DNA of 64,000 nt, from contig CP064973.1 in NCBI GenBank assembly GCA_016699365.1, forward strand, positions 237,684-301,683, in the 5' to 3' direction. The number at the start of each line of letters is the position of its first letter. Within the stretch, counting starts at the first letter, position 1. The position numbers and the translations under genes are program-made. The notes under the pieces were generated by a model, which did no database searches, had not been told where the DNA came from, and was given only the letters and a program-made list of their open reading frames with translations. This document shows positions 1,495 through 50,813 of this stretch, one piece after another. The DNA comes from Candidatus Nomurabacteria bacterium (GTDB lineage: Bacteria; Patescibacteriota; Minisyncoccia; Phycocordibacterales; UBA9973).

Positions 1495-1644
1495 ATTTGT
1501 TTGAATTAGTGGGAATCTTTCCTTACAGGAACAGTGCACCTTTTCACTCCAATAAAATTGAAGCCTGAAAAGCTTTTCGATTCCTACACGCAAGCAAAGC
1601 AGTTTGCTTGCTCGGGAGGACAAAGCCTCGCTTCGCTCATTTTG

Positions 1645-1717
1645 TCCTCCCGGTAGGAATCGAACCTACGACCCTCTCCTTAAAAGGGAGCTGCTCTACC
1701 GACTGAGCTACGGGAGG
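1645..1717 (-). tRNA. tRNA-Lys (anticodon UUU)
   Basis: Hand-folded cloverleaf: acceptor CCTCCCG/CGGGAGG, D-arm GCTC..GAGC, anticodon loop CTTTTAA, T-arm GTAGG TTCGATT CCTAC. There is one G.A mismatch at the top of the anticodon stem. Confidence 0.7.
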
Positions 1718-45753: not shown

Positions 45754-46026
45754 TTATTTAACTGCGTCCTTGAACGCTTTTGCTGCACGAAACTTTGGAA
45801 CTTTTGTAGCAGCAACTTTTACTTGCTCACCTGTCTTTGGGTTGCGAGCCATACGAGCTGCACGATCTTTTACAGAAAAGATTCCTAGACCTGCGATTGA
45901 AACTTCACCTCCTTTTTTCAAAGTACCGATGATTGCGTCAATCAATCCGTCTACGATTTCTTCAGCCTGCACTTTTGTGCCGCCAACTTTTCCATGAACC
46001 CATTCAACCAATGCTTGTTTATTCAT
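45754..46026 (-). CDS. hup: HU-family DNA-binding protein
   Basis: 90 aa; GLGIFSVKDRAARMARNPKTGEQVKVAATKVPKFRAAKAFKDAV is the HU arm signature. Confidence 0.85.
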   Translation of the reverse strand: MNKQALVEWVHGKVGGTKVQAEEIVDGLIDAIIGTLKKGGEVSIAGLGIFSVKDRAARMARNPKTGEQVKVAATKVPKFRAAKAFKDAVK

Positions 46027-46165: not shown

Positions 46166-46939
46166 CTACTTTGCCTGCTCCCAAGCAATTTTATACAAAG
46201 ATTTTAGAAGCGAAGCTATCTTACTGTTTTTGATAGTTATTGAATGCAGTCCACTATCCCAAACAGTAAAACAAGCAGTATCTCCAAATATAGATGCTTG
46301 AACTTCTGGGTTATATATTTCCCTTGGAAGAGAGCGAACTTCTCGTCCTTTGCCGATTGCGTCCAATTTTTCACTGTCTGTCATAGGAGAATCTGGCATC
46401 AAAATCATGGATTTTATACCTTTTTTCATACGTAATTTACGGTAATCAGCCAATCTGTCACGAGCAACAGTAAATTTCTCCGGATCTCCACCTAGTCGTA
46501 ACACTTCGCTATGTTTTCCTTCTAGAGAAGAATAAAAAGTTTTCACAAATCCGTCTTCTCCATGAAGTTCTTCGACCACTATAGGTTCTTCGCCTTTTTC
46601 TGTAGCAAAAATAGCATTTAGTTCTGGAAGTGTTTGTTCTAAGATACTTTTTCTTTCATTTAGAATATTTTGATCAAACTCAACAAGAGATCTAATCCTT
46701 TCTGGGGTGTCTATATAAAAAAGTCTTCGTTTGCCTTGCTTGTGCACTAAGACAACTCCACGTTCAATAAGTTCTTCGGTTGCTAGGTGGACACTTGAAC
46801 GAGGAAGACCGACTGATTTTGCGAGATCTTGAATAGACAGAAGTCCTGCACCAAGTAAGCTAGAGAACACTTCAACTTGTGTCCTGTCTAAACCCGCTTT
46901 ACGAAGAGAAGATTTAAATTCTTGAGATAATTGTTTCAT
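46166..46939 (-). CDS. TrmB-family transcriptional regulator
   Basis: 257 aa; N-terminal wHTH (LDRTQVEVFSSLLGAG..SIQDLAKSVGLPRSSVHLATEELIERG). Confidence 0.5.
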   Translation of the reverse strand: MKQLSQEFKSSLRKAGLDRTQVEVFSSLLGAGLLSIQDLAKSVGLPRSSVHLATEELIERGVVLVHKQGKRRLFYIDTPERIRSLVEFDQNILNERKSILEQTLPELNAIFATEKGEEPIVVEELHGEDGFVKTFYSSLEGKHSEVLRLGGDPEKFTVARDRLADYRKLRMKKGIKSMILMPDSPMTDSEKLDAIGKGREVRSLPREIYNPEVQASIFGDTACFTVWDSGLHSITIKNSKIASLLKSLYKIAWEQAK

Positions 46940-47029
46940 AAAATGACAGAAATCTTTGACAAAATATTATTAAATCCAACAAAACCCATTATATACTTGA
47001 TTTTACTGGAATACAAGTAGTATAAATCA

Positions 47030-47772
47030 TTGACATTTAACTTCAGTCGTGTTACACTATCTCCAGATAAGTTCGATGAAGAAATCCAATCGAGGTGAGA
47101 TTACCGGAAGTTGCGTGGTTGCCATTTCTGGTAACCTCCCTTCGATTAGGGAAAAGATTCACGTTGAATAGATTGCTCATTATCTAAAAGGCGCACCAGG
47201 CGGATCTGGTGGAACCACAAAAATGAGTAGGGCGAGTCTTCACAGATTTTCCTAGAGTCTACAAAAAACACTTCCGAGGTTCGTTGTCGAACAAAGAATG
47301 TTTTAAATCGGGTCCCGTGTATGGATTCTAGCCACACAGCTGTGTAGGAGTGATCGATGGCCTTAAAAAGCTGGAGATTGCGTACGGAATTCATACCTTG
47401 GTGTAGCTCTAAAGTTTTCGGAAAAGGGATTGCCAATGTGTCCGTGGCACCCTTTTCTCGAAGATAGATTAAGTTGATCTTTTTCAAAGCAAAAATATGG
47501 GTGACCTTACCCAACCTGTCAGAGACAGGCAAAGGCTATGCATCTTCACAATAAAGCTGGATTGATTCTGGCCTGAATCAATCACAACTTTAGCGTATCC
47601 AAGTTTTTCGGCAGCGGTACTCGTTTGCAGCTTGACTGCAAACGAGGATTCCCTCAAAAACTAAAGTGGAGGCTCGCAATCTCTACAGGAAAAACTTACA
47701 GTACCGGCGGGTACTGCAAAGTAATGAAGAATGGACGATCGCAATTGTCGGTCGTCCTTTTTATCCAGACTA
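47030..47772 (+). ncRNA. candidate large (about 700 nt) structured non-coding RNA with sigma70-like promoter and intrinsic terminator; class unknown
   Basis: TTGACA (47030-35), 17 nt spacer, TACACT (47053-58). No credible plus-strand ORF. GC visibly higher than the neighbours. Several perfect hairpins, for example ctcgtttgcag/ctgcaaacgag (11 bp), gattgattc/gaatcaatc (9 bp) and gtacc-ggcg-ggtac. The terminator is ggacga..tcgtcc + TTTTTAT at 47733-47762. Confidence 0.3.
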
Positions 47773-47831
47773 CAATTTCGATTGCGGTTTGGTAGAAAGT
47801 AAAAAGTTCTTTTCACTTACAAAATAAATAA

Positions 47832-48230
47832 ATGAAATCCACAAAGAGTTACGTAAAAGAATTGGAAGATTTACTTGGACCAGTCGATGAAAAAATAACA
47901 AAGGAGGTAAATGACCACTTTGAAAAAATAGAACAACAATATAAATGGATGGAAGAAAATAATATTCCACAAGATTTGAGGAAGTATTATTTTGATCTTG
48001 AAGTTTTGAAGACACATGACTACAAGCCTGTAGCTGTAACTACAATGATGTGCGAAAACACTTTTGTTTTTGAAACAGAAGATGAAGCAATTAGAGCATT
48101 TGAACAATTTGAGAAACATCCAAGCGGTGAATATATATCAGGTTGGTGGTACAGCAGAGAATCTTTTGATAGCTCAATCAAAGAGTATGCAAAAGAGGTT
48201 GGCTATGATCCGAAAGTTATCTGGTTCTAA
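47832..48230 (+). CDS. hypothetical protein
   Basis: 132 aa ORF; acidic; no recognised motif. Confidence 0.35.
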   Translation: MKSTKSYVKELEDLLGPVDEKITKEVNDHFEKIEQQYKWMEENNIPQDLRKYYFDLEVLKTHDYKPVAVTTMMCENTFVFETEDEAIRAFEQFEKHPSGEYISGWWYSRESFDSSIKEYAKEVGYDPKVIWF

Positions 48231-48252
48231 ATCTAAAAAATTAAAAAAACTT

Positions 48253-48414
48253 ATGGAAAACACATTGGACAAAATTGACCTTCAAAAAGAGGCTGACAAA
48301 TTACTTTTGAAAAACGGTTTTCAAACAACCGGCGATAAAAAAAAGAGGATTTGCAAAGCACAAAGATTTTTTGAGAAACGTATTTTGATAACACCAATGG
48401 GGCATAAGAGATAA
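48253..48414 (+). CDS. small (53 aa) basic hypothetical protein
   Basis: Internal Met start (MENTLDKIDLQ...) of ORF 48064-48414, chosen to avoid overlap with the upstream gene. Speculative. Confidence 0.2.
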   Translation: MENTLDKIDLQKEADKLLLKNGFQTTGDKKKRICKAQRFFEKRILITPMGHKR

Positions 48415-48649
48415 GTTGTACATGTCGGACGGGTAACCTGTATAACCCATCACCGTTCCACGAAGGGTATGGGGGCCGACATCCTGGGAAATGAGAAGTG
48501 GTCAAATGAACCGCTTCTCATCTTTATCAGACTCATGAGTTTGTTTCGTGGGTCTGTAGAGATATTGAAGTATAAACAGAGAGCATTGCGTAGGCACTGC
48601 AGTGCTCCGTGTTTGTTCTTTAAATAGTTTCACGAGTAAAAATCTATAT

Positions 48650-48889
48650 ATGGATATTCAGAAGTTAAACTCAGCTATCGGTAAAAAAGTATTTGTCGTA
48701 TCGCTCCGTATGAGAGTAATGCGAGTGAGTGATTATGGAAAACTCGAAATGGTAAATGAACCAAACAATATTATTTTGGCTAAAATGCCGTTTGGAGACA
48801 GCATAATCCCATTTGATGAAATCTTAAAGGTCTATGATGATCAAGGTTATGTTGTTTACGACAATGAGCCTTCTAAAAAGAAGAAATAA
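48650..48889 (+). CDS. small hypothetical protein
   Basis: 79 aa from MDIQKLNSAIGKKVFVV... Preceded by the AGTTTCACGAGTAAAA motif that is shared with the next gene. Confidence 0.3.
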   Translation: MDIQKLNSAIGKKVFVVSLRMRVMRVSDYGKLEMVNEPNNIILAKMPFGDSIIPFDEILKVYDDQGYVVYDNEPSKKKK

Positions 48890-48991
48890 CCTGATACGAA
48901 GATATATTCCATACGTTTAGTCAGTTTCACAAGTAAAACGAAAAAAGACAAAAGAAACGTTACACAAAACTAAACTAAAAAACGTAAACGT

Positions 48992-49324
48992 ATGGAAAGA
49001 GAAACTTTTACCGTAACCCTTTGGTTCAAGGAAACAAAGGACGGGAAACGGGAGCGACCTGTTTCACTTACTTATCATCTCGACGGCTTCTATAGCAAGA
49101 AGCAAACCAATCTACTCTATAAAATATATTCTGATGTTTATGGTCAGATAAGTATGAGTGGGTATGGATGGCTCGATGAAGCGGTAGTGTGTATATGGAT
49201 TCTCCCTAAACAACCTTTTCTCCCTTCTACATTGCGCTACTGTGAAACAGTGAAGGCTTGGCTCGATTTTATTGAGTTTCAAGTTTCTGTAACAGTCAGC
49301 ATATTGTATGAGAAGGAAAGTTAA
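48992..49324 (+). CDS. small hypothetical protein
   Basis: 110 aa; upstream motif AGTTTCACAAGTAAAA (48911-48926). Confidence 0.3.
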   Translation: MERETFTVTLWFKETKDGKRERPVSLTYHLDGFYSKKQTNLLYKIYSDVYGQISMSGYGWLDEAVVCIWILPKQPFLPSTLRYCETVKAWLDFIEFQVSVTVSILYEKES

Positions 49325-49380
49325 TTCAAAGAAGGGAGCAATCCCTTCTTTTTTCATTTAATTTTTTAAAACAAAAAATT

Positions 49381-49542
49381 ATGAGCAAGAACAAGAAAAA
49401 TATTCGTATTGTAATCAAGAAAGATTTAGCAAAAGACAATCGTGAGATGTCCAGAAATGTATTTGCTAATGTAAATGTAAAAGAGAAGTCATTCAAGGAT
49501 AAGTCCAAATATACAAGAAAGGTAAAACATAAAGACACTTGA
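49381..49542 (+). CDS. small (53 aa) highly basic protein
   Basis: MSKNKKNIRIVIKKDLAKDNREMSRNVFANVNVKEKSFKDKSKYTRKVKHKDT. Its stop codon lies inside the -35 box of the downstream promoter. Confidence 0.25.
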   Translation: MSKNKKNIRIVIKKDLAKDNREMSRNVFANVNVKEKSFKDKSKYTRKVKHKDT

Positions 49543-49810
49543 CAAACACTAGCTACAATGTTATACTACTCCTAGCTCAATAAAAGAGCTTATATTGATC
49601 CGGCAGCCGTGTTGGCGTCCGCTAGCTTTCGCAAGAAAGCCCGTGGACTAGAACAACCGGCATAATTAGGTCAGGGCGATAATGATGAGAACGAATTCTT
49701 GATTCTAAACCATGTGGGGTTTGGAAAAGATATGAAGGGAAGCCCTAAAACAAATTGCGATGTGCCATGGCCTATCGCGCCCCCGAACTTTTTAAGTTTG
49801 GGGGTTTTTT
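49539..49810 (+). ncRNA. candidate sRNA/leader (about 240 nt) with consensus sigma70 promoter and intrinsic terminator; class unknown
   Basis: TTGACA (49539-44), 17 nt spacer, TATACT (49562-67). GNRA hairpin GCTTTC-GCAA-GAAAGC. Long-range pairing GGGCGATA/TATCGCGCCC. Terminator cccccgaactt..aagtttggggg + T7 at 49779-49810. Longest internal ORF is 28 aa. Confidence 0.35.
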
Positions 49811-49828
49811 TATGTTAAAATTCATAAT

Positions 49829-49986
49829 ATGACAAATCCAAAATACACACCCGAGGAATACAAAGAAATAGTCGAGAAGATAAAAAATGGTACTGCAACA
49901 GAGTCCGAGATAAAAGATATCGAGGAACTTGTTCGCAACGCAACAATCGAGATTAATAATATTTTAGAGGAAGACAAGAATTAATT
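49829..49986 (+). CDS. small (52 aa) acidic hypothetical protein
   Basis: ATG-to-TAA ORF MTNPKYTPEEYKEIVEKIKNG... immediately after the terminator. Speculative. Confidence 0.2.
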
Positions 49987-49987
49987 T

Positions 49988-50362
49988 ATGGACAAAGAAC
50001 CAACACAAAATACAATAGAGAATACAGAATCAGTGGATATGGAACAGTTTGGTGAGAATATAAAAAATGCATCTCCAAGTACTCTTCTAAAAATAAAAGA
50101 GGTTATGAAACGCCCTGAAACATGGACTGGTATAGCGACCATGGTAATGGGAAGCATCGTAGGAGTACAGGTATTTGAACATAGTGAGGTGGTAAAAGAA
50201 AACTGGGATGATCTAGGGAAAAGCGCAGAAAGTTTTCGAGGCGTTTTAAATGCTTATAAGGTTTTTGCTTCTGGTGTGTTCACAATGGGAGTCCTAGTAA
50301 CAATGCTTGGGATAAGTAAAGGTGGTGATATTGCAAAACAAAAAGCTAATTTAGAACAATAA
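49988..50362 (+). CDS. hypothetical protein with two hydrophobic segments
   Basis: 124 aa ORF. Confidence 0.35.
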   Translation: MDKEPTQNTIENTESVDMEQFGENIKNASPSTLLKIKEVMKRPETWTGIATMVMGSIVGVQVFEHSEVVKENWDDLGKSAESFRGVLNAYKVFASGVFTMGVLVTMLGISKGGDIAKQKANLEQ

Positions 50363-50490
50363 AACCCGCAAGGGTTTTTGTTTTTTATAACCTATACCAC
50401 GCACTCGGTAATCTAGAGTTTATTTACCGGAAAATTTTTCTCTTATCCACCACTTTTAAAAAGCACACATAAAATCCTGCTGGATTTTTG
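50361..50490 (-). repeat. conserved intergenic RNA-like element, copy D (minus strand)
   Basis: Its reverse complement aligns base-for-base with copy A across roughly 130 nt, including the 5' hairpin aaaatccagcaggatttt and the terminator aaaaaccc-ttgc-gggtttt. Confidence 0.5.
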
Positions 50491-50813
50491 CTCAACTCGC
50501 GCCGGCCGCGCTCCGTCAGGCTTTTTAGAAAGTGTGGATTTATTTATATAGGAATTCAGAATCCTTGAGCCCAGGCTTTGCCCTTCAATTCCACGAGTAT
50601 ACGAACAAACGAGGACGAACGTTCCGTAAGGAAAAAGTATTCTGTTTGAGACAGCAGGCGAGTTAATACTTTTAGTGAGTCCGAGTTTTGTGAGTATTCG
50701 TGGGATTGAATGCAAAGAGGTTTTTGTGTTACTTTTTTGAAAAATTAACGATTAAAAAACAAAGAAAAATTCCGCAAAGCGGAATTTTTCTTTTGTTCAG
50801 TCTGATTTCAAAC

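What the first reader, a model, noticed from the sequence alone, without database searches (positions are those of the whole stretch)
47030..47772. Candidate roughly 700-nt structured ncRNA in a GC-rich, ORF-poor block bracketed by a sigma70-like promoter and an intrinsic terminator
The region 46940-47830 is visibly GC-richer than the surrounding DNA and has no credible plus-strand ORF. TTGACA-17-TACACT sits at 47030-47058. A strong hairpin plus TTTTTAT sits at 47733-47762. Between them are numerous perfect inverted repeats, with 11 bp and 9 bp stems. The only ORF-track entry here, 47146-47532 on the minus strand, is antisense to this unit and has no recognisable protein features. I looked for RNase P P4 strands, a tmRNA tRNA-like end with tag ORF, the T-box motif and the SRP domain IV motif, and found none convincingly. 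Group I/II introns, OLE/GOLLD/ROOL-type large RNAs, or a new class remain possible.
Basis: partly seen in the sequence, partly recalled or inferred. Interest (0 to 1): 0.7.

Follow-up and report, generated by a model that had tools for sequence, protein, structure and literature searches.

The report
New modular pseudoknotted RNA, Nomurabacteria
The flagged stretch is most likely a real, roughly 700-base non-coding RNA from an uncultivated ultra-small (CPR) bacterium; it belongs to an RNA family absent from Rfam 15, built from a long 5' hairpin, one to three pseudoknotted modules and a terminator, and nearly identical strains carry different modules.

Summary
A conserved sigma-70 promoter with an extended -10 (47030-47058) and an intrinsic terminator (47733-47764) bracket about 700 nt. 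This stretch is GC-rich (44% against 36% for the window), has no credible ORF and folds strongly (z = -8).

No Rfam 15 family matches, here or in relatives. The antisense ORF has no homologue among 5.8 billion proteins and has non-coding codon statistics.

The window comes from a Candidatus Nomurabacteria (Paceibacterota) genome. Loci found through the adjacent TrmBL2-like regulator carry related RNAs with four shared features:
- a 25-30 bp 5' hairpin (23 of 28 pairs covary);
- modules in which a hairpin-loop 4-mer pairs with a 4-mer further downstream. Nine complementary types were seen, including A.C/G.U exchanges. The window has two such pseudoknots, CGGA/UCCG and ACCU/AGGC;
- a covarying junction core in most relatives, which the window lacks;
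- a terminator followed by a conserved second hairpin.

Near-identical strains keep the ends and swap the centre. One metagenome carries an identical copy next to genes only 83% identical.

This is a new structured RNA family. Its function is unknown. I favour a stable, protein- or ligand-binding RNA at the head of a small-ORF operon. A riboswitch-like leader is the main rival.

The parts
47030..47058 (+). Sigma-70 promoter TTGACA-17-(TG)TTACACT with an extended -10. The transcript probably starts near 47065.
   Evidence: 10 of 12 positions, TG present. The same motif is at the equivalent position in 26 of 28 homologous loci.
47060..47087 (+). Short 5' leader (CCAGAUAAGUUCGAUGAAG...). It resembles the CAGA-hairpin / GUUCUUU leader that precedes other units of the island in relatives.
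   Evidence: Read from the sequence. Similarity only; not tested.
47088..47147 (+). Long 5' hairpin of about 27 bp with base AAUCGAGG / CUUCGAUU. This is the conserved 5' handle of the family.
   Evidence: The MFE is a hairpin in all 13 loci folded. RNAalifold on 11 loci predicts 28 pairs, 23 of them with changes on both sides. G.U pairs lie on the + strand.
47148..47158 (+). Purine-rich linker AGGGAAAAGAU. The sharp left breakpoint of the strain-specific centre lies at 47158/47159.
   Evidence: Alignment with L001/L002. AAAGAU also separates the modules in L002.
47159..47497 (+). Module X, the strain-specific centre. It contains hairpin P2 at 47194-47211 (CACCAG GCGGAU CUGGUG), a pseudoknot between 47201-47204 (CGGA) and 47273-47276 (UCCG, followed by A-GGU as in canonical modules), hairpin 47279-47292, the tail CUCUAAAGUUUUC at 47407-47419, and hairpin 47421-47457. 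It lacks the canonical junction core.
   Evidence: No homologue in other loci except the identical copy in L114. The pseudoknot fits the family grammar. The core covariance models do not hit it. The fold is only modestly significant, z = -2.8.
47498..47732 (+). 3' domain D3, shared with L002 and L004. It contains P2 at 47499-47512 (GGGU GACCUU ACCC), hairpin 47515-47529, a pseudoknot between 47504-47507 (ACCU) and 47533-47536 (AGGC), helix 47537-41 / 47593-97, hairpin 47560-47583, helix 47601-09 / 47688-97, hairpin 47620-47646, hairpin 47666-47686 and hairpin 47696-47719.
   Evidence: 81 consensus pairs, 9 with changes on both sides, and many G-C or A-U to G.U changes that pair only on the + strand. 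Pseudoknot. z = -7.2. Coordinates.
47733..47764 (+). Intrinsic terminator: stem GGACGAUCG / CGGUCGUCC followed by UUUUUAU.
   Evidence: The stem covaries between the window, L002 and L004 and differs in sequence but not in form in other loci.
47765..47812 (+). 3' half of 'E element' 1. A second hairpin (CCAGAC...GGUUUGG) whose stem can extend to pair the U-tract with UAGAAAG, followed by GUUCUUU 20 nt before the ATG at 47832.
   Evidence: It is 98% identical over 47 nt in L115, where the rest differs. The strain breakpoint at 47832 is.
47146..47532 (-). Antisense 128-aa ORF. Judged spurious.
   Evidence: It is disrupted in L001/L002.
46166..46939 (-). Divergently transcribed TrmBL2-like regulator (winged HTH, long helix, PLD/NucT-like C-terminal domain). 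This gene is the syntenic anchor of the RNA.
   Evidence: Pfam TrmB. AlphaFold pLDDT 89.8. Foldseek top hits are TrmBL2 5bpd/5bqt at E = 5e-14 and NucT for the C-terminal domain. Synteny.
48493..48621 (+). 'E element' 2, after the 53-aa ORF: terminator-like hairpin, UCUUUAUCAG...CUGUAGAGA stem, an extra hairpin, then UGUUCUUU. It marks the next unit border of the same island.
   Evidence: z = -8.0 for 48415-48625.

Best explanation
The region 47030-47764 is an autonomous transcription unit on the + strand. It produces a highly structured, non-coding RNA of about 700 nt that belongs to an RNA family I could not find in Rfam 15 or in three searches of the held paper library. The family occurs in Paceibacterota (Candidatus Nomurabacteria and relatives).

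Architecture, as shown by the analysis:
- a long 5' hairpin;
- one to three modules, each built on a hairpin (P2) whose loop forms a 4-bp pseudoknot with a downstream 4-mer;
- an intrinsic terminator.
The window's copy has two such pseudoknot modules: the lineage-specific X and the conserved D3.

Mechanism, inferred rather than shown:
- The conserved strong promoter lies next to the gene for a TrmBL2-like DNA-binding protein, which probably controls it.
- The terminal hairpins protect the RNA from exonucleases, so it accumulates as a stable RNA.
- The pseudoknotted modules are the functional surfaces, each binding a protein or a small ligand.
- Module number and identity are reshuffled between strains by recombination at the unit borders (AAAGAU linkers and the E elements).
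- The terminators are partly read through, so the same promoter also feeds the downstream promoter-less small ORFs. The long stems (the 5' hairpin and the second E hairpin) are plausible RNase III processing sites that would separate the RNA from the mRNAs.

My own probability estimates: a real structured RNA on the + strand, about 0.9; a family not yet described, about 0.8; acts mainly as a stable trans-acting or scaffold RNA rather than purely as a cis leader, about 0.5.
For: Transcription signals:
- Promoter and terminator are present.
- The promoter is conserved in 26 of 28 loci.
- Terminator stems covary.

Structure:
- z = -8.0 for the whole unit.
- 5' hairpin: 23 of 28 pairs have compensatory changes.
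- P2 plus pseudoknot: 91% of cells are paired, the covariation score is 0.82 against 0.19 in shuffles (0 of 500 shuffles reach it), and slid controls pair in only 11-52% of cells.
- Nine complementary 4-mer types were seen. The first position alternates among A.C, G.U, G-C and C-G.
- D3: 9 compensatory pairs among only 3 sequences.

Strand assignment:
- The promoter and terminator both face the + strand.
- The + strand MFE contains 25 G.U pairs and is 15 kcal/mol more stable than the - strand fold.
- One-sided changes give G.U on the + strand.

Not coding.

Not a known family.

Not found on phage contigs; the collection-scan matches were not family members.

Family and modularity:
- The canonical core appears in 12 modules from 10 loci at E = 2e-5 to 2e-16, with helices Pa and Pb covarying.
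- Relatives with the same 5' hairpin and the same E1 carry different centres.

Block inheritance: L114 shows 0 differences in 892 nt of promoter plus RNA and 1 in 774 nt of the regulator, against 83-84% identity in the next two genes and 96% in HU.
Against: - There are no expression data.
- Function is entirely inferred.
- The pseudoknot and core alignments were hand-curated. Registers were fixed by position rules but chosen by me, which inflates the statistics.
- D3 rests on three sequences.
- X has no independent homologue and only z = -2.8, so it could be less constrained filler.
- Fold z-scores are almost equal on the two strands.
- The 100% identity with L114 also covers the regulator gene, so it may reflect recent transfer rather than purifying selection on the RNA.
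- In about 12 loci read by eye the gene after the RNA is on the same strand, and one search finds no promoter for those of the window. This fits a leader at least as well as a stand-alone RNA.
Confidence: 0.5

Rival explanations
1. The RNA is a cis-acting leader: a riboswitch-like sensor array. Its pseudoknotted modules would sense a metabolite or other signal and set how much transcription passes the terminator at 47733-47764, and the later E terminators, into the small-ORF operon at 47832-49324.
For: - In about 12 loci read by eye the unit is followed by a gene on the same strand.
- No sigma-70-like promoter lies between 47764 and 49000 on the + strand.
- In relatives the canonical module has invariant unpaired nucleotides framed by covarying helices and a pseudoknot, the usual signature of an aptamer.
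- In single-module loci the module abuts the terminator. In L022 it directly precedes an ORF.
- Tandem modules recall tandem riboswitches.
- Terminator U-tracts in relatives are weak (CUCUUUAU), which implies read-through.
Against: - The genes downstream differ from locus to locus and share no function.
- In L014, L016, L021 and L025 the RNA follows an ORF instead of leading the operon.
- I found no mutually exclusive antiterminator pairing.
- The window's own copy lacks the canonical core.
- At 450-1100 nt with swappable modules, the RNA is far larger and more variable than known riboswitch leaders.
Confidence: 0.3
2. The stretch has no RNA-level function. It would be a mosaic DNA scar of a recombining cassette island, in which the hairpins are DNA inverted repeats (recombination or protein-binding sites) and the centre is junk left by exchanges.
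For: - Strain-to-strain replacement of the centre, with sharp breakpoints.
- Metagenome contigs break inside the region.
- z-scores are nearly equal on both strands.
- X has weak fold significance.
- Repeated E elements sit at the unit borders.
Against: - Compensatory changes maintain helices and a long-range 4-bp pseudoknot across loci whose sequences otherwise do not align. A DNA palindrome model does not predict pseudoknot covariation or A.C/G.U exchange.
- G.U pairs are strand-specific.
- A conserved promoter and terminator frame the unit.
- No integrase or transposase was seen among the neighbours examined.
Confidence: 0.08
3. The RNA is a very divergent member of a known large RNA family (GOLLD, ROOL, OLE, raiA, a group I or II intron, RNase P or tmRNA) that the covariance models miss.
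For: - CPR lineages are divergent and their RNAs are often missed by standard models. For example, group I introns hide tRNA genes in Patescibacteria (PMC13011429, seen).
- GOLLD also has one conserved and one variable half (from my own knowledge, not tested).
Against: - No hit at E <= 10 in the window region or at E <= 5 in four relatives for any such family.
- No tRNA-like end or tag ORF.
- The family's own conserved elements (5' hairpin, GACC-loop pseudoknot, GGUAAAAACC junction) do not correspond to the signature motifs of those families as I know them.
Confidence: 0.05
4. The locus encodes a protein: either the 128-aa minus-strand ORF or a frameshifted pseudogene.
For: An uninterrupted 128-codon frame in an AT-rich genome is mildly unexpected, and it spans almost exactly the variable centre.
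Against: - No Pfam match.
- No homologue at E <= 0.1 in 5.8 billion proteins.
- GC3 is 0.48 against 0.25 for real genes, and codon log-odds is -0.16 per codon against a minimum of +0.10 among 28 long genes.
- TTG start codon.
- Absent from strains with 100% identical flanking protein.
Confidence: 0.02

Closest known systems
Large 'ornate' bacterial ncRNAs of unknown function (OLE, GOLLD, ROOL, raiA)
   Same: - It is several hundred nucleotides long and multi-domain.
- It has pseudoknots and GNRA-capped helices.
- It is much more GC-rich than its AT-rich genome.
- It has its own promoter and terminator.
- Its taxonomic range is narrow, and its function is not deducible from neighbouring genes.
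   Different: - It matches none of their Rfam models.
- Those RNAs have one fixed architecture. This family is an array of one to three interchangeable modules between constant ends, and the modules are swapped between near-identical strains.
- Homo-oligomer formation, shown for GOLLD, ROOL and OLE (PMC12286853), is untested here.
Tandem riboswitch aptamers with intrinsic-terminator expression platforms (for example glycine)
   Same: - Relatives carry repeated, homologous, pseudoknotted junction modules with invariant unpaired nucleotides.
- The modules sit upstream of a terminator and co-oriented genes.
   Different: - There is no coherent regulon and no identifiable switching helix.
- The modules are 150-300 nt long with large variable insertions.
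- The window copy lacks the conserved core.
- No riboswitch model matches.
tmRNA pseudoknot string (PK1-PK4)
   Same: It is a series of H-type pseudoknots whose number and sequence vary between lineages within one stable RNA.
   Different: It has no tRNA-like domain, no tag reading frame and no match to the tmRNA models.
Type III toxin-antitoxin RNA arrays (ToxI-type)
   Same: The layout is promoter, then repeated pseudoknot-forming RNA units, then a terminator, then a downstream gene.
   Different: - The units are not short (34-45 nt) near-identical tandem repeats. TRF finds none.
- The downstream proteins are unrelated between loci and match no PADLOC model.
RNase III-processed polycistronic transcripts (phage T7 early region, rRNA operons) and operon-internal antitermination RNAs (EAR, put)
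   Same: Long, nearly perfect stems lie at unit borders of a multi-unit, single-promoter transcript, and a structured RNA lies at or near the start of an operon that contains internal terminators.
   Different: This is purely an analogy from the anatomy. No processing sites or antitermination activity are known here, and there is no sequence or model match.

Membership tests
New Paceibacterota modular pseudoknot RNA family (defined here) | Long (25-30 bp) 5' hairpin with base UCGARRG / CYUUYGA, followed by a purine-rich GRAAAAGA linker | tested here: met
   Window 47088-47158. (23 of 28 pairs covary across 11 loci).
New Paceibacterota modular pseudoknot RNA family (defined here) | At least one module in which a P2 hairpin-loop 4-mer pairs with a downstream 4-mer (pseudoknot) | tested here: met
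   There are two in the window: CGGA 47201-04 with UCCG 47273-76, and ACCU 47504-07 with AGGC 47533-36.. The alignment was hand-curated.
New Paceibacterota modular pseudoknot RNA family (defined here) | Canonical junction core UGGC-A-GGUAAAAACC-[Pa]-UGCC-[Pb]-AAAGUUUU | tested here: not met
   Covariance models R1 and R2 find no hit in 47000-47800, while they hit 12 modules in 10 relatives' loci. Only the AAAGUUUUC tail (47410-19) and the partner-N-GGU grammar remain in X.
New Paceibacterota modular pseudoknot RNA family (defined here) | Conserved extended -10 promoter, terminator plus E element, and synteny with the TrmBL2-like regulator | tested here: met
OLE / GOLLD / ROOL / raiA / HEARO large RNAs | Match to the family's Rfam covariance model (conserved sequence plus structure) | tested here: not met
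   No hit at the gathering score. No hit at E <= 10 in 46900-47900 or at E <= 5 in L002, L004, L007 and L008.
Group I / group II introns | Catalytic-core match (P3-P9, or domains V/VI) and flanking exons of a host gene | tested here: not met
   No intron model hit. The flanks are a promoter and a terminator, not a split gene.
RNase P RNA / tmRNA / SRP RNA / 6S RNA / T-box | Match to the Rfam model; for tmRNA, also a tRNA-like domain and a tag ORF | tested here: not met
   ARAGORN finds only 6 tRNAs and no tmRNA.
Riboswitch (generic) | Conserved aptamer with covarying helices and invariant junction nucleotides | tested here: inconclusive
   This is met by the canonical module in relatives but not by the window's module X.
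Riboswitch (generic) | Consistent association with a functionally coherent set of downstream genes | tested here: not met
   Downstream ORFs differ between loci and have no Pfam, NCBIfam or PADLOC assignment.
Riboswitch (generic) | Ligand binding and ligand-dependent switching of the terminator | not testable with these tools
   This needs in-line probing and transcription-termination assays.
Type III TA antitoxin RNA | Tandem, near-identical 34-45 nt repeats followed by a ToxN/AbiE-type toxin gene | tested here: not met
   TRF finds no array in 46900-48700. PADLOC finds nothing for the downstream ORFs.
Integron-like gene cassette array | attC sites with RYYYAAC / GTTRRRY cores and an IntI integrase nearby | tested here: not met
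   E elements end in GUUCUUU, not GTTRRRY, and hairpin-2 bases vary. No recombinase was found among ORFs within about 8 kb. Only the window's neighbourhood was checked.

The most novel reading that the evidence does not exclude
This would be a new class of large bacterial RNA, specific to CPR (Paceibacterota), built as an array of interchangeable pseudoknotted modules between constant 5' and 3' handles. Modules would be exchanged like cassettes between otherwise near-identical strains, making this an RNA-level hypervariable locus. The RNA would be co-inherited with, and probably controlled by, a TrmBL2-like chromatin protein encoded next to HU. The modules would be individual ligand- or protein-binding domains, or assembly interfaces as in ROOL and GOLLD. 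The island's E elements would be a new kind of unit border (terminator plus processing hairpin) that allows RNA and small-ORF units to be shuffled.
Probability: 0.35. Interest if true: 0.8.

Novelty: new variant of a known kind. Interest (0 to 1): 0.68.

Why it matters
CPR/Patescibacteria have tiny genomes of about 0.7 Mb (the source contig here is 705 kb), so a 0.5-1.1 kb non-coding locus with strong structural conservation is unlikely to be dispensable. Few structured RNAs specific to this radiation have been described.

The family offers three things:
- a new pseudoknotted junction motif with riboswitch-like conservation that can be tested directly by in-line probing;
- a natural example of modular, cassette-like evolution of a large RNA, visible between strains that are otherwise over 98% identical;
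- a set of conserved border elements that may show how these organisms punctuate polycistronic transcripts.

The case also shows that the 'GC-rich, ORF-free intergenic region in an AT-rich genome' heuristic works on raw CPR sequence.

Tried and rejected
- Rfam at gathering and permissive thresholds on the window, the neighbouring 48400-50800 stretch and four relatives gave only tRNAs and chance sub-threshold hits.
- A phage DNA similarity search found no match.
- A metagenome-wide scan with the 5' hairpin pattern ATTACCGGAAG-N5-30-TTCTGGTAAC returned 13 hits, all chance matches inside unrelated coding sequence.
- IMG/VR scans with an E-element pattern (71 hits) and with the core 15-mer (90 hits listed) found no family member: none of the E-pattern hits has the upstream half of an E element, and none of the 80 fetched 15-mer loci matches model R2.
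- nhmmer with the window's centre against all fetched loci found no homologue of 47159-47438.
- Exact look-up of the 132-aa protein returned nothing on record. A homology search then found it.
- Contigs for the 91% and 82% regulator homologues stop inside or just after the 5' hairpin, so they gave no centre sequence.
- HDV-like ribozyme: the core has the same strand order (P1-P2-P3-P1'-P4-P2'), but the Pb/Pc junction is AAA with no catalytic C, the P1 equivalent is only 3-4 bp, and no HDV model hits. Rejected.
- Similarities noticed by eye to the ZTP, c-di-GMP-I and glycine riboswitches and to the glmS ribozyme are not supported by their covariance models.
- Integron/attC and type III antitoxin readings were rejected (see the membership tests).
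- E as a promoter: the spacing to any -10-like hexamer is too short, and one search finds none.
- PADLOC and NCBIfam on the neighbouring ORFs gave only generic wHTH similarity for the regulator.
Full report
**1. Observation**

- TTGACA-17-TACACT at 47030-47058 matches 10 of 12 positions and has a TG extended -10.
- A 9-pair GC-rich stem at 47733-47757 is followed by TTTTTAT.
- Between them lie perfect or near-perfect inverted repeats of 11, 12, 10 and 8 nt.
- GC of 47060-47765 is 44.2% against 35.8% for the window, the 99th percentile of all 706-nt windows.
- The longest + strand ORF in the unit is 56 aa. A 128-aa ORF lies antisense at 47146-47532.
- The stretch folds far better than shuffled controls: z = -8.0 on + and -7.9 on -. 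The signal comes mainly from the 5' hairpin and the 3' third. 47491-47765 gives z = -7.2, whereas the centre 47159-47497 gives -2.8.

**2. What it is not**

No known RNA family matches.
- No Rfam 15 family reaches its gathering score in the window except six tRNAs.
- At E <= 10 the region gives only chance hits to microRNA and sRNA models.
- The homologous regions of four relatives give nothing either.
- ARAGORN finds no tmRNA.

The antisense ORF is not a gene.
- It has no Pfam match and no homologue at E <= 0.1 among 5.8 billion proteins.
- Its GC3 is 0.48 against 0.25 for genes, and its codon log-odds is -0.16 per codon, against +0.40 on average and +0.10 at minimum for 28 long genes of the window.
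- It is wiped out in strains whose flanking regulator protein is 100% identical.

There is no similarity to phage records, and there are no tandem repeats.

**3. Source and context**

The 132-aa ORF downstream is 100% identical to 'hypothetical protein IPJ63_01650 [Candidatus Nomurabacteria bacterium]' on a 705-kb contig. Relatives of the neighbouring regulator come from Paceibacterota/Minisyncoccia MAGs. The window is ordinary chromosome: CCA-adding enzyme, HU, RNase Y, ClpP and trigger factor.

The gene transcribed divergently from the RNA (46166-46939, minus strand) is a TrmB-family winged-HTH protein. Its AlphaFold model (pLDDT 89.8) matches full-length TrmBL2, an archaeal chromatin protein, at E = 5e-14. 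Its C-terminal domain matches the PLD/NucT fold.

**4. Comparative evidence**

I used the regulator as an anchor to collect 28 homologous loci. TTGACn-N13-16-TGnTAnnnT sits at the equivalent place in 26 of them, so the promoter is conserved. Downstream of it most loci have an ORF-free, structured stretch of 450-1100 nt. Four recurrent elements emerge.

(a) A 5' hairpin of 25-30 bp, followed by a purine-rich GRAAAAGA linker. Every one of 13 sequences folds this way. In an 11-sequence alignment, 23 of 28 consensus pairs show compensatory changes.

(b) Modules that begin with a short GC-rich hairpin (P2).
- A 4-mer in the P2 loop is complementary to a 4-mer that, in the canonical modules and X, lies one nucleotide 5' of a GGY element further downstream; in L011 and the D3 domains the context differs.
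- The pairs seen are ACCA/UGGC, ACCC/GGGC, ACCU/AGGC, AGCA/UGCC, ACUA/UAGC, GCAU/AUGU, GCCA/UGGU, GCCA/UGGC and CGGA/UCCG.
- The three inner pairs are Watson-Crick in all 14 distinct rows. The outer pair is A.C in 10 rows and G.U, G-C or C-G in the rest. A.C and G.U are isosteric wobbles, so this is an RNA-level signature.
- Counted formally, 91% of cells pair. The covariation score is 0.82 against 0.19 in shuffles (0 of 500 reach it), and slid registers pair in only 11-52% of cells (an earlier subset is).
- This alignment is hand-made, which favours the hypothesis, although the registers follow fixed positional rules.

(c) A strongly conserved junction core in most relatives: YGACCGAACAAAA-UGGC-A-GGUAAAAACC-[Pa]-UGCC-[Pb]-AAAGUUUU.
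- Pa and Pb covary.
- In a 12-row curated alignment, 92% of cells pair and 11 of 19 pairs have double changes, with 0 of 500 shuffles reaching this.
- A closing helix Pc, (G/A)AAAAC with GUUUU(C/U), has modest support.
- A crossing GGY/RCC helix is only compatible with the data, not proven.
- Pb is capped either by a GNRA loop (GUAA or GCAA) or by a conserved internal loop plus an extra hairpin.
- Covariance models built from this core hit 12 modules in 10 loci at E = 2e-5 to 2e-16. They hit nothing in viral contigs that share its 15-mer.

(d) A terminator hairpin followed by a second, longer stem. This stem pairs the U-tract region (YUUUAUCAG) with CUGUAGAGR. It is followed by (U)GUUCUUU about 20 nt before the next start codon or the next RNA hairpin. 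I call this composite the E element. The window has two, at 47733-47812 and 48493-48621.

**5. The window's copy**

- Shared parts. It has the 5' hairpin (47088-47147) and linker (47148-47158). With L002 and L004 it also shares a 3' domain, D3 (47498-47732), and the terminator.
- D3. It begins with a P2 hairpin, GGGU-GACCUU-ACCC. Its loop ACCU pairs with AGGC at 47533-47536, whereas L002 and L004 have ACCC/GGGC at the same place. The three-sequence consensus fold has 81 pairs. Nine have double changes, and many one-sided changes create G.U only on the + strand.
- Centre. The centre (47159-47497) is unrelated in sequence to the centres of L002 and L004, and the core models do not hit it.
- Family grammar in the centre. 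It still contains a P2-like hairpin, CACCAG-GCGGAU-CUGGUG (47194-47211). The loop CGGA is complementary to UCCG at 47273-47276, followed by A-GGU, and the centre ends with CUCUAAAGUUUUC (47407-47419).

I therefore read the centre as a divergent, expanded module (X). Its internal fold is supported only by thermodynamics.

**6. Modularity and mosaicism**

Relatives that share the same 5' hairpin (94-96% identical) and the same E1 (98%) carry different contents between them:
- X + D3 in the window and L114;
- M1 + M2 + D3 in L002;
- M1' + M2' + D3' in L004;
- a single M in L115/L116;
- M + M'' in L117;
- an M''-type start in L112.

Breakpoints are sharp and fall at unit borders: 47158/47159 after AAAGAU, and 47832 at the start of the next gene.

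In L114, from a different metagenome, promoter plus RNA plus E1 are 892/892 identical and the regulator differs at 1 of 774 positions. HU is 96% identical, and the next two genes are 83-84% identical. The regulator and the RNA therefore travel as one block. Several metagenome contigs end inside or just after the 5' hairpin, which would be expected if variants coexist in a population.

**7. Strand**

Folding energy alone does not decide the strand. The + strand is supported by four observations:
- the promoter and terminator are both oriented to +;
- the + strand MFE is 15 kcal/mol more stable and contains 25 G.U pairs;
- one-sided substitutions give G.U on +, which would be C.A on -;
- the pseudoknot shows A.C/G.U exchange.

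**8. Mechanism**

Shown:
- a conserved promoter and terminator;
- a conserved 5' hairpin;
- conserved pseudoknotted modules;
- modular exchange between strains;
- linkage to a TrmBL2-like gene.

Inferred:
- The RNA is a stable species protected by terminal hairpins.
- The modules are binding surfaces for a protein or a small ligand.
- The neighbouring regulator controls the promoter.
- The weak terminators are partly read through to express the downstream ORFs, for which one search finds no promoter.
- The long stems are RNase III-type processing sites.

The main rival is a purely cis-acting sensor-leader.
- In favour: in about 12 loci read by eye the next gene is on the same strand, there is no internal promoter, and the canonical core shows aptamer-like conservation.
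- Against: the downstream genes are unrelated between loci, the RNA sometimes follows an ORF, no switching helix is visible, and the window copy lacks the core.

I cannot separate these two readings without expression data.

**9. Comparison with known systems, and novelty**

In kind, this RNA is closest to the large ornate bacterial RNAs (OLE, GOLLD, ROOL, raiA), but it is not a member of any of them. It resembles tandem riboswitches, the pseudoknot string of tmRNA and type III antitoxin arrays in single aspects only. Each of those memberships fails at least one tested defining feature.

Three full-text searches of the held paper library found no description of such an RNA in Patescibacteria.

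I rate it a new variant of a known kind: a new family of large structured ncRNA with an unusual modular, strain-variable architecture.

**10. Limits**

- There are no transcript data.
- The pseudoknot and core alignments were curated by hand.
- D3 rests on three sequences.
- X has no independent homologue.
- All relatives were found through one neighbouring gene, so the family's true distribution and context are biased and incomplete.

Noticed in passing
window 47733-47812 and 48493-48621; also L010, L012, L014-L017, L020-L023, L025, L115, L117: A composite 'E element' marks the borders of units (RNA or small ORF) in this island. It consists of a terminator-like hairpin, a second long stem pairing YUUUAUCAG with CUGUAGAGR, and then (U)GUUCUUU about 20 nt before the next ATG or RNA hairpin. 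A full-length E-type pattern matches only at 47761-47798 in the 64-kb window, and by inspection both copies lie in this island. Strain breakpoints fall at these borders. A second subtype after small ORFs has a conserved loop (GGRCGAGCCUAnAGUAAAAUCGYCC ACAUUAUUCAG) and no U-tract.
   Followed up: partly
window 48415-48625 (+): The stretch between the 53-aa ORF and the 79-aa ORF is ORF-free and folds with z = -8.0. It contains a roughly 60-nt multi-hairpin element (48422-48482) ahead of E element 2.
   Followed up: partly
window 49540-49812 (+): This is a second candidate small RNA. A TTGACA-17-TATACT promoter at 49540-49568 is followed by about 240 nt of GC-rich, ORF-free sequence ending in a strong terminator (CCCCCGAAC...GUUUGGGGG UUUUUUU). 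z = -4.2, and there are only sub-threshold Rfam hits to unrelated sRNA models (best E = 0.003).
   Followed up: partly
window 50390-50810: Another GC-rich (0.42-0.45), ORF-poor stretch lies between the 124-aa ORF's terminator and the end of the RNase Y gene. It contains only a dubious 90-aa TTG ORF on the minus strand, and there are only sub-threshold Rfam hits at its 3' end (50703-50800).
   Followed up: no
window 48253-48414 (+); L014, L015, L016, L019, L114-L117: A conserved 53-55 aa basic ORF (...KLLxKNGFxxxGxKKxxxxxQxFFExRxxxTPMGN/H...) recurs beside the RNA in distant relatives, sometimes upstream of it and sometimes downstream. It has no Pfam, NCBIfam or PADLOC match.
   Followed up: partly
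window 1644-1717 (-): ARAGORN labels this tRNA 'tRNA-Stop, anticodon tta'. The Rfam alignment, however, places the 7-nt anticodon loop at CUUUUAA, which gives anticodon UUU (Lys), with a G.A mismatch closing the stem. This is probably an ARAGORN register artefact rather than a suppressor tRNA.
   Followed up: partly
window 46166-46939 (-) and 45754-46026 (-): The regulator next to the RNA has the full TrmBL2 architecture (an archaeal chromatin protein; wHTH, long helix and a PLD-like domain without an HxK motif). It sits directly beside the HU gene. The DNA between it and the RNA promoter carries a conserved TGACA-N9-TGACA direct repeat that overlaps the regulator's start codon.
   Followed up: partly
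L115 3244-3580 and L117 911-1250: In these relatives the regulator gene is inverted relative to the window. A GC-rich, hairpin-dense stretch of about 280 nt lies between its terminator and the RNA promoter. It was not analysed.
   Followed up: no
window 47232-47243 with 47666-47677; L002 and L004 centres: The MFE of the whole RNA pairs window-specific GCGAGUCUUCAC with conserved GUGGAGGCUCGC (12 bp). The unrelated centres of L002 and L004 also contain UUGCGAG and UUGCGGG, which are complementary to the same conserved CUCGCAA loop of hairpin 47666-47686. This may be a long-range loop contact; its significance was not tested.
   Followed up: no
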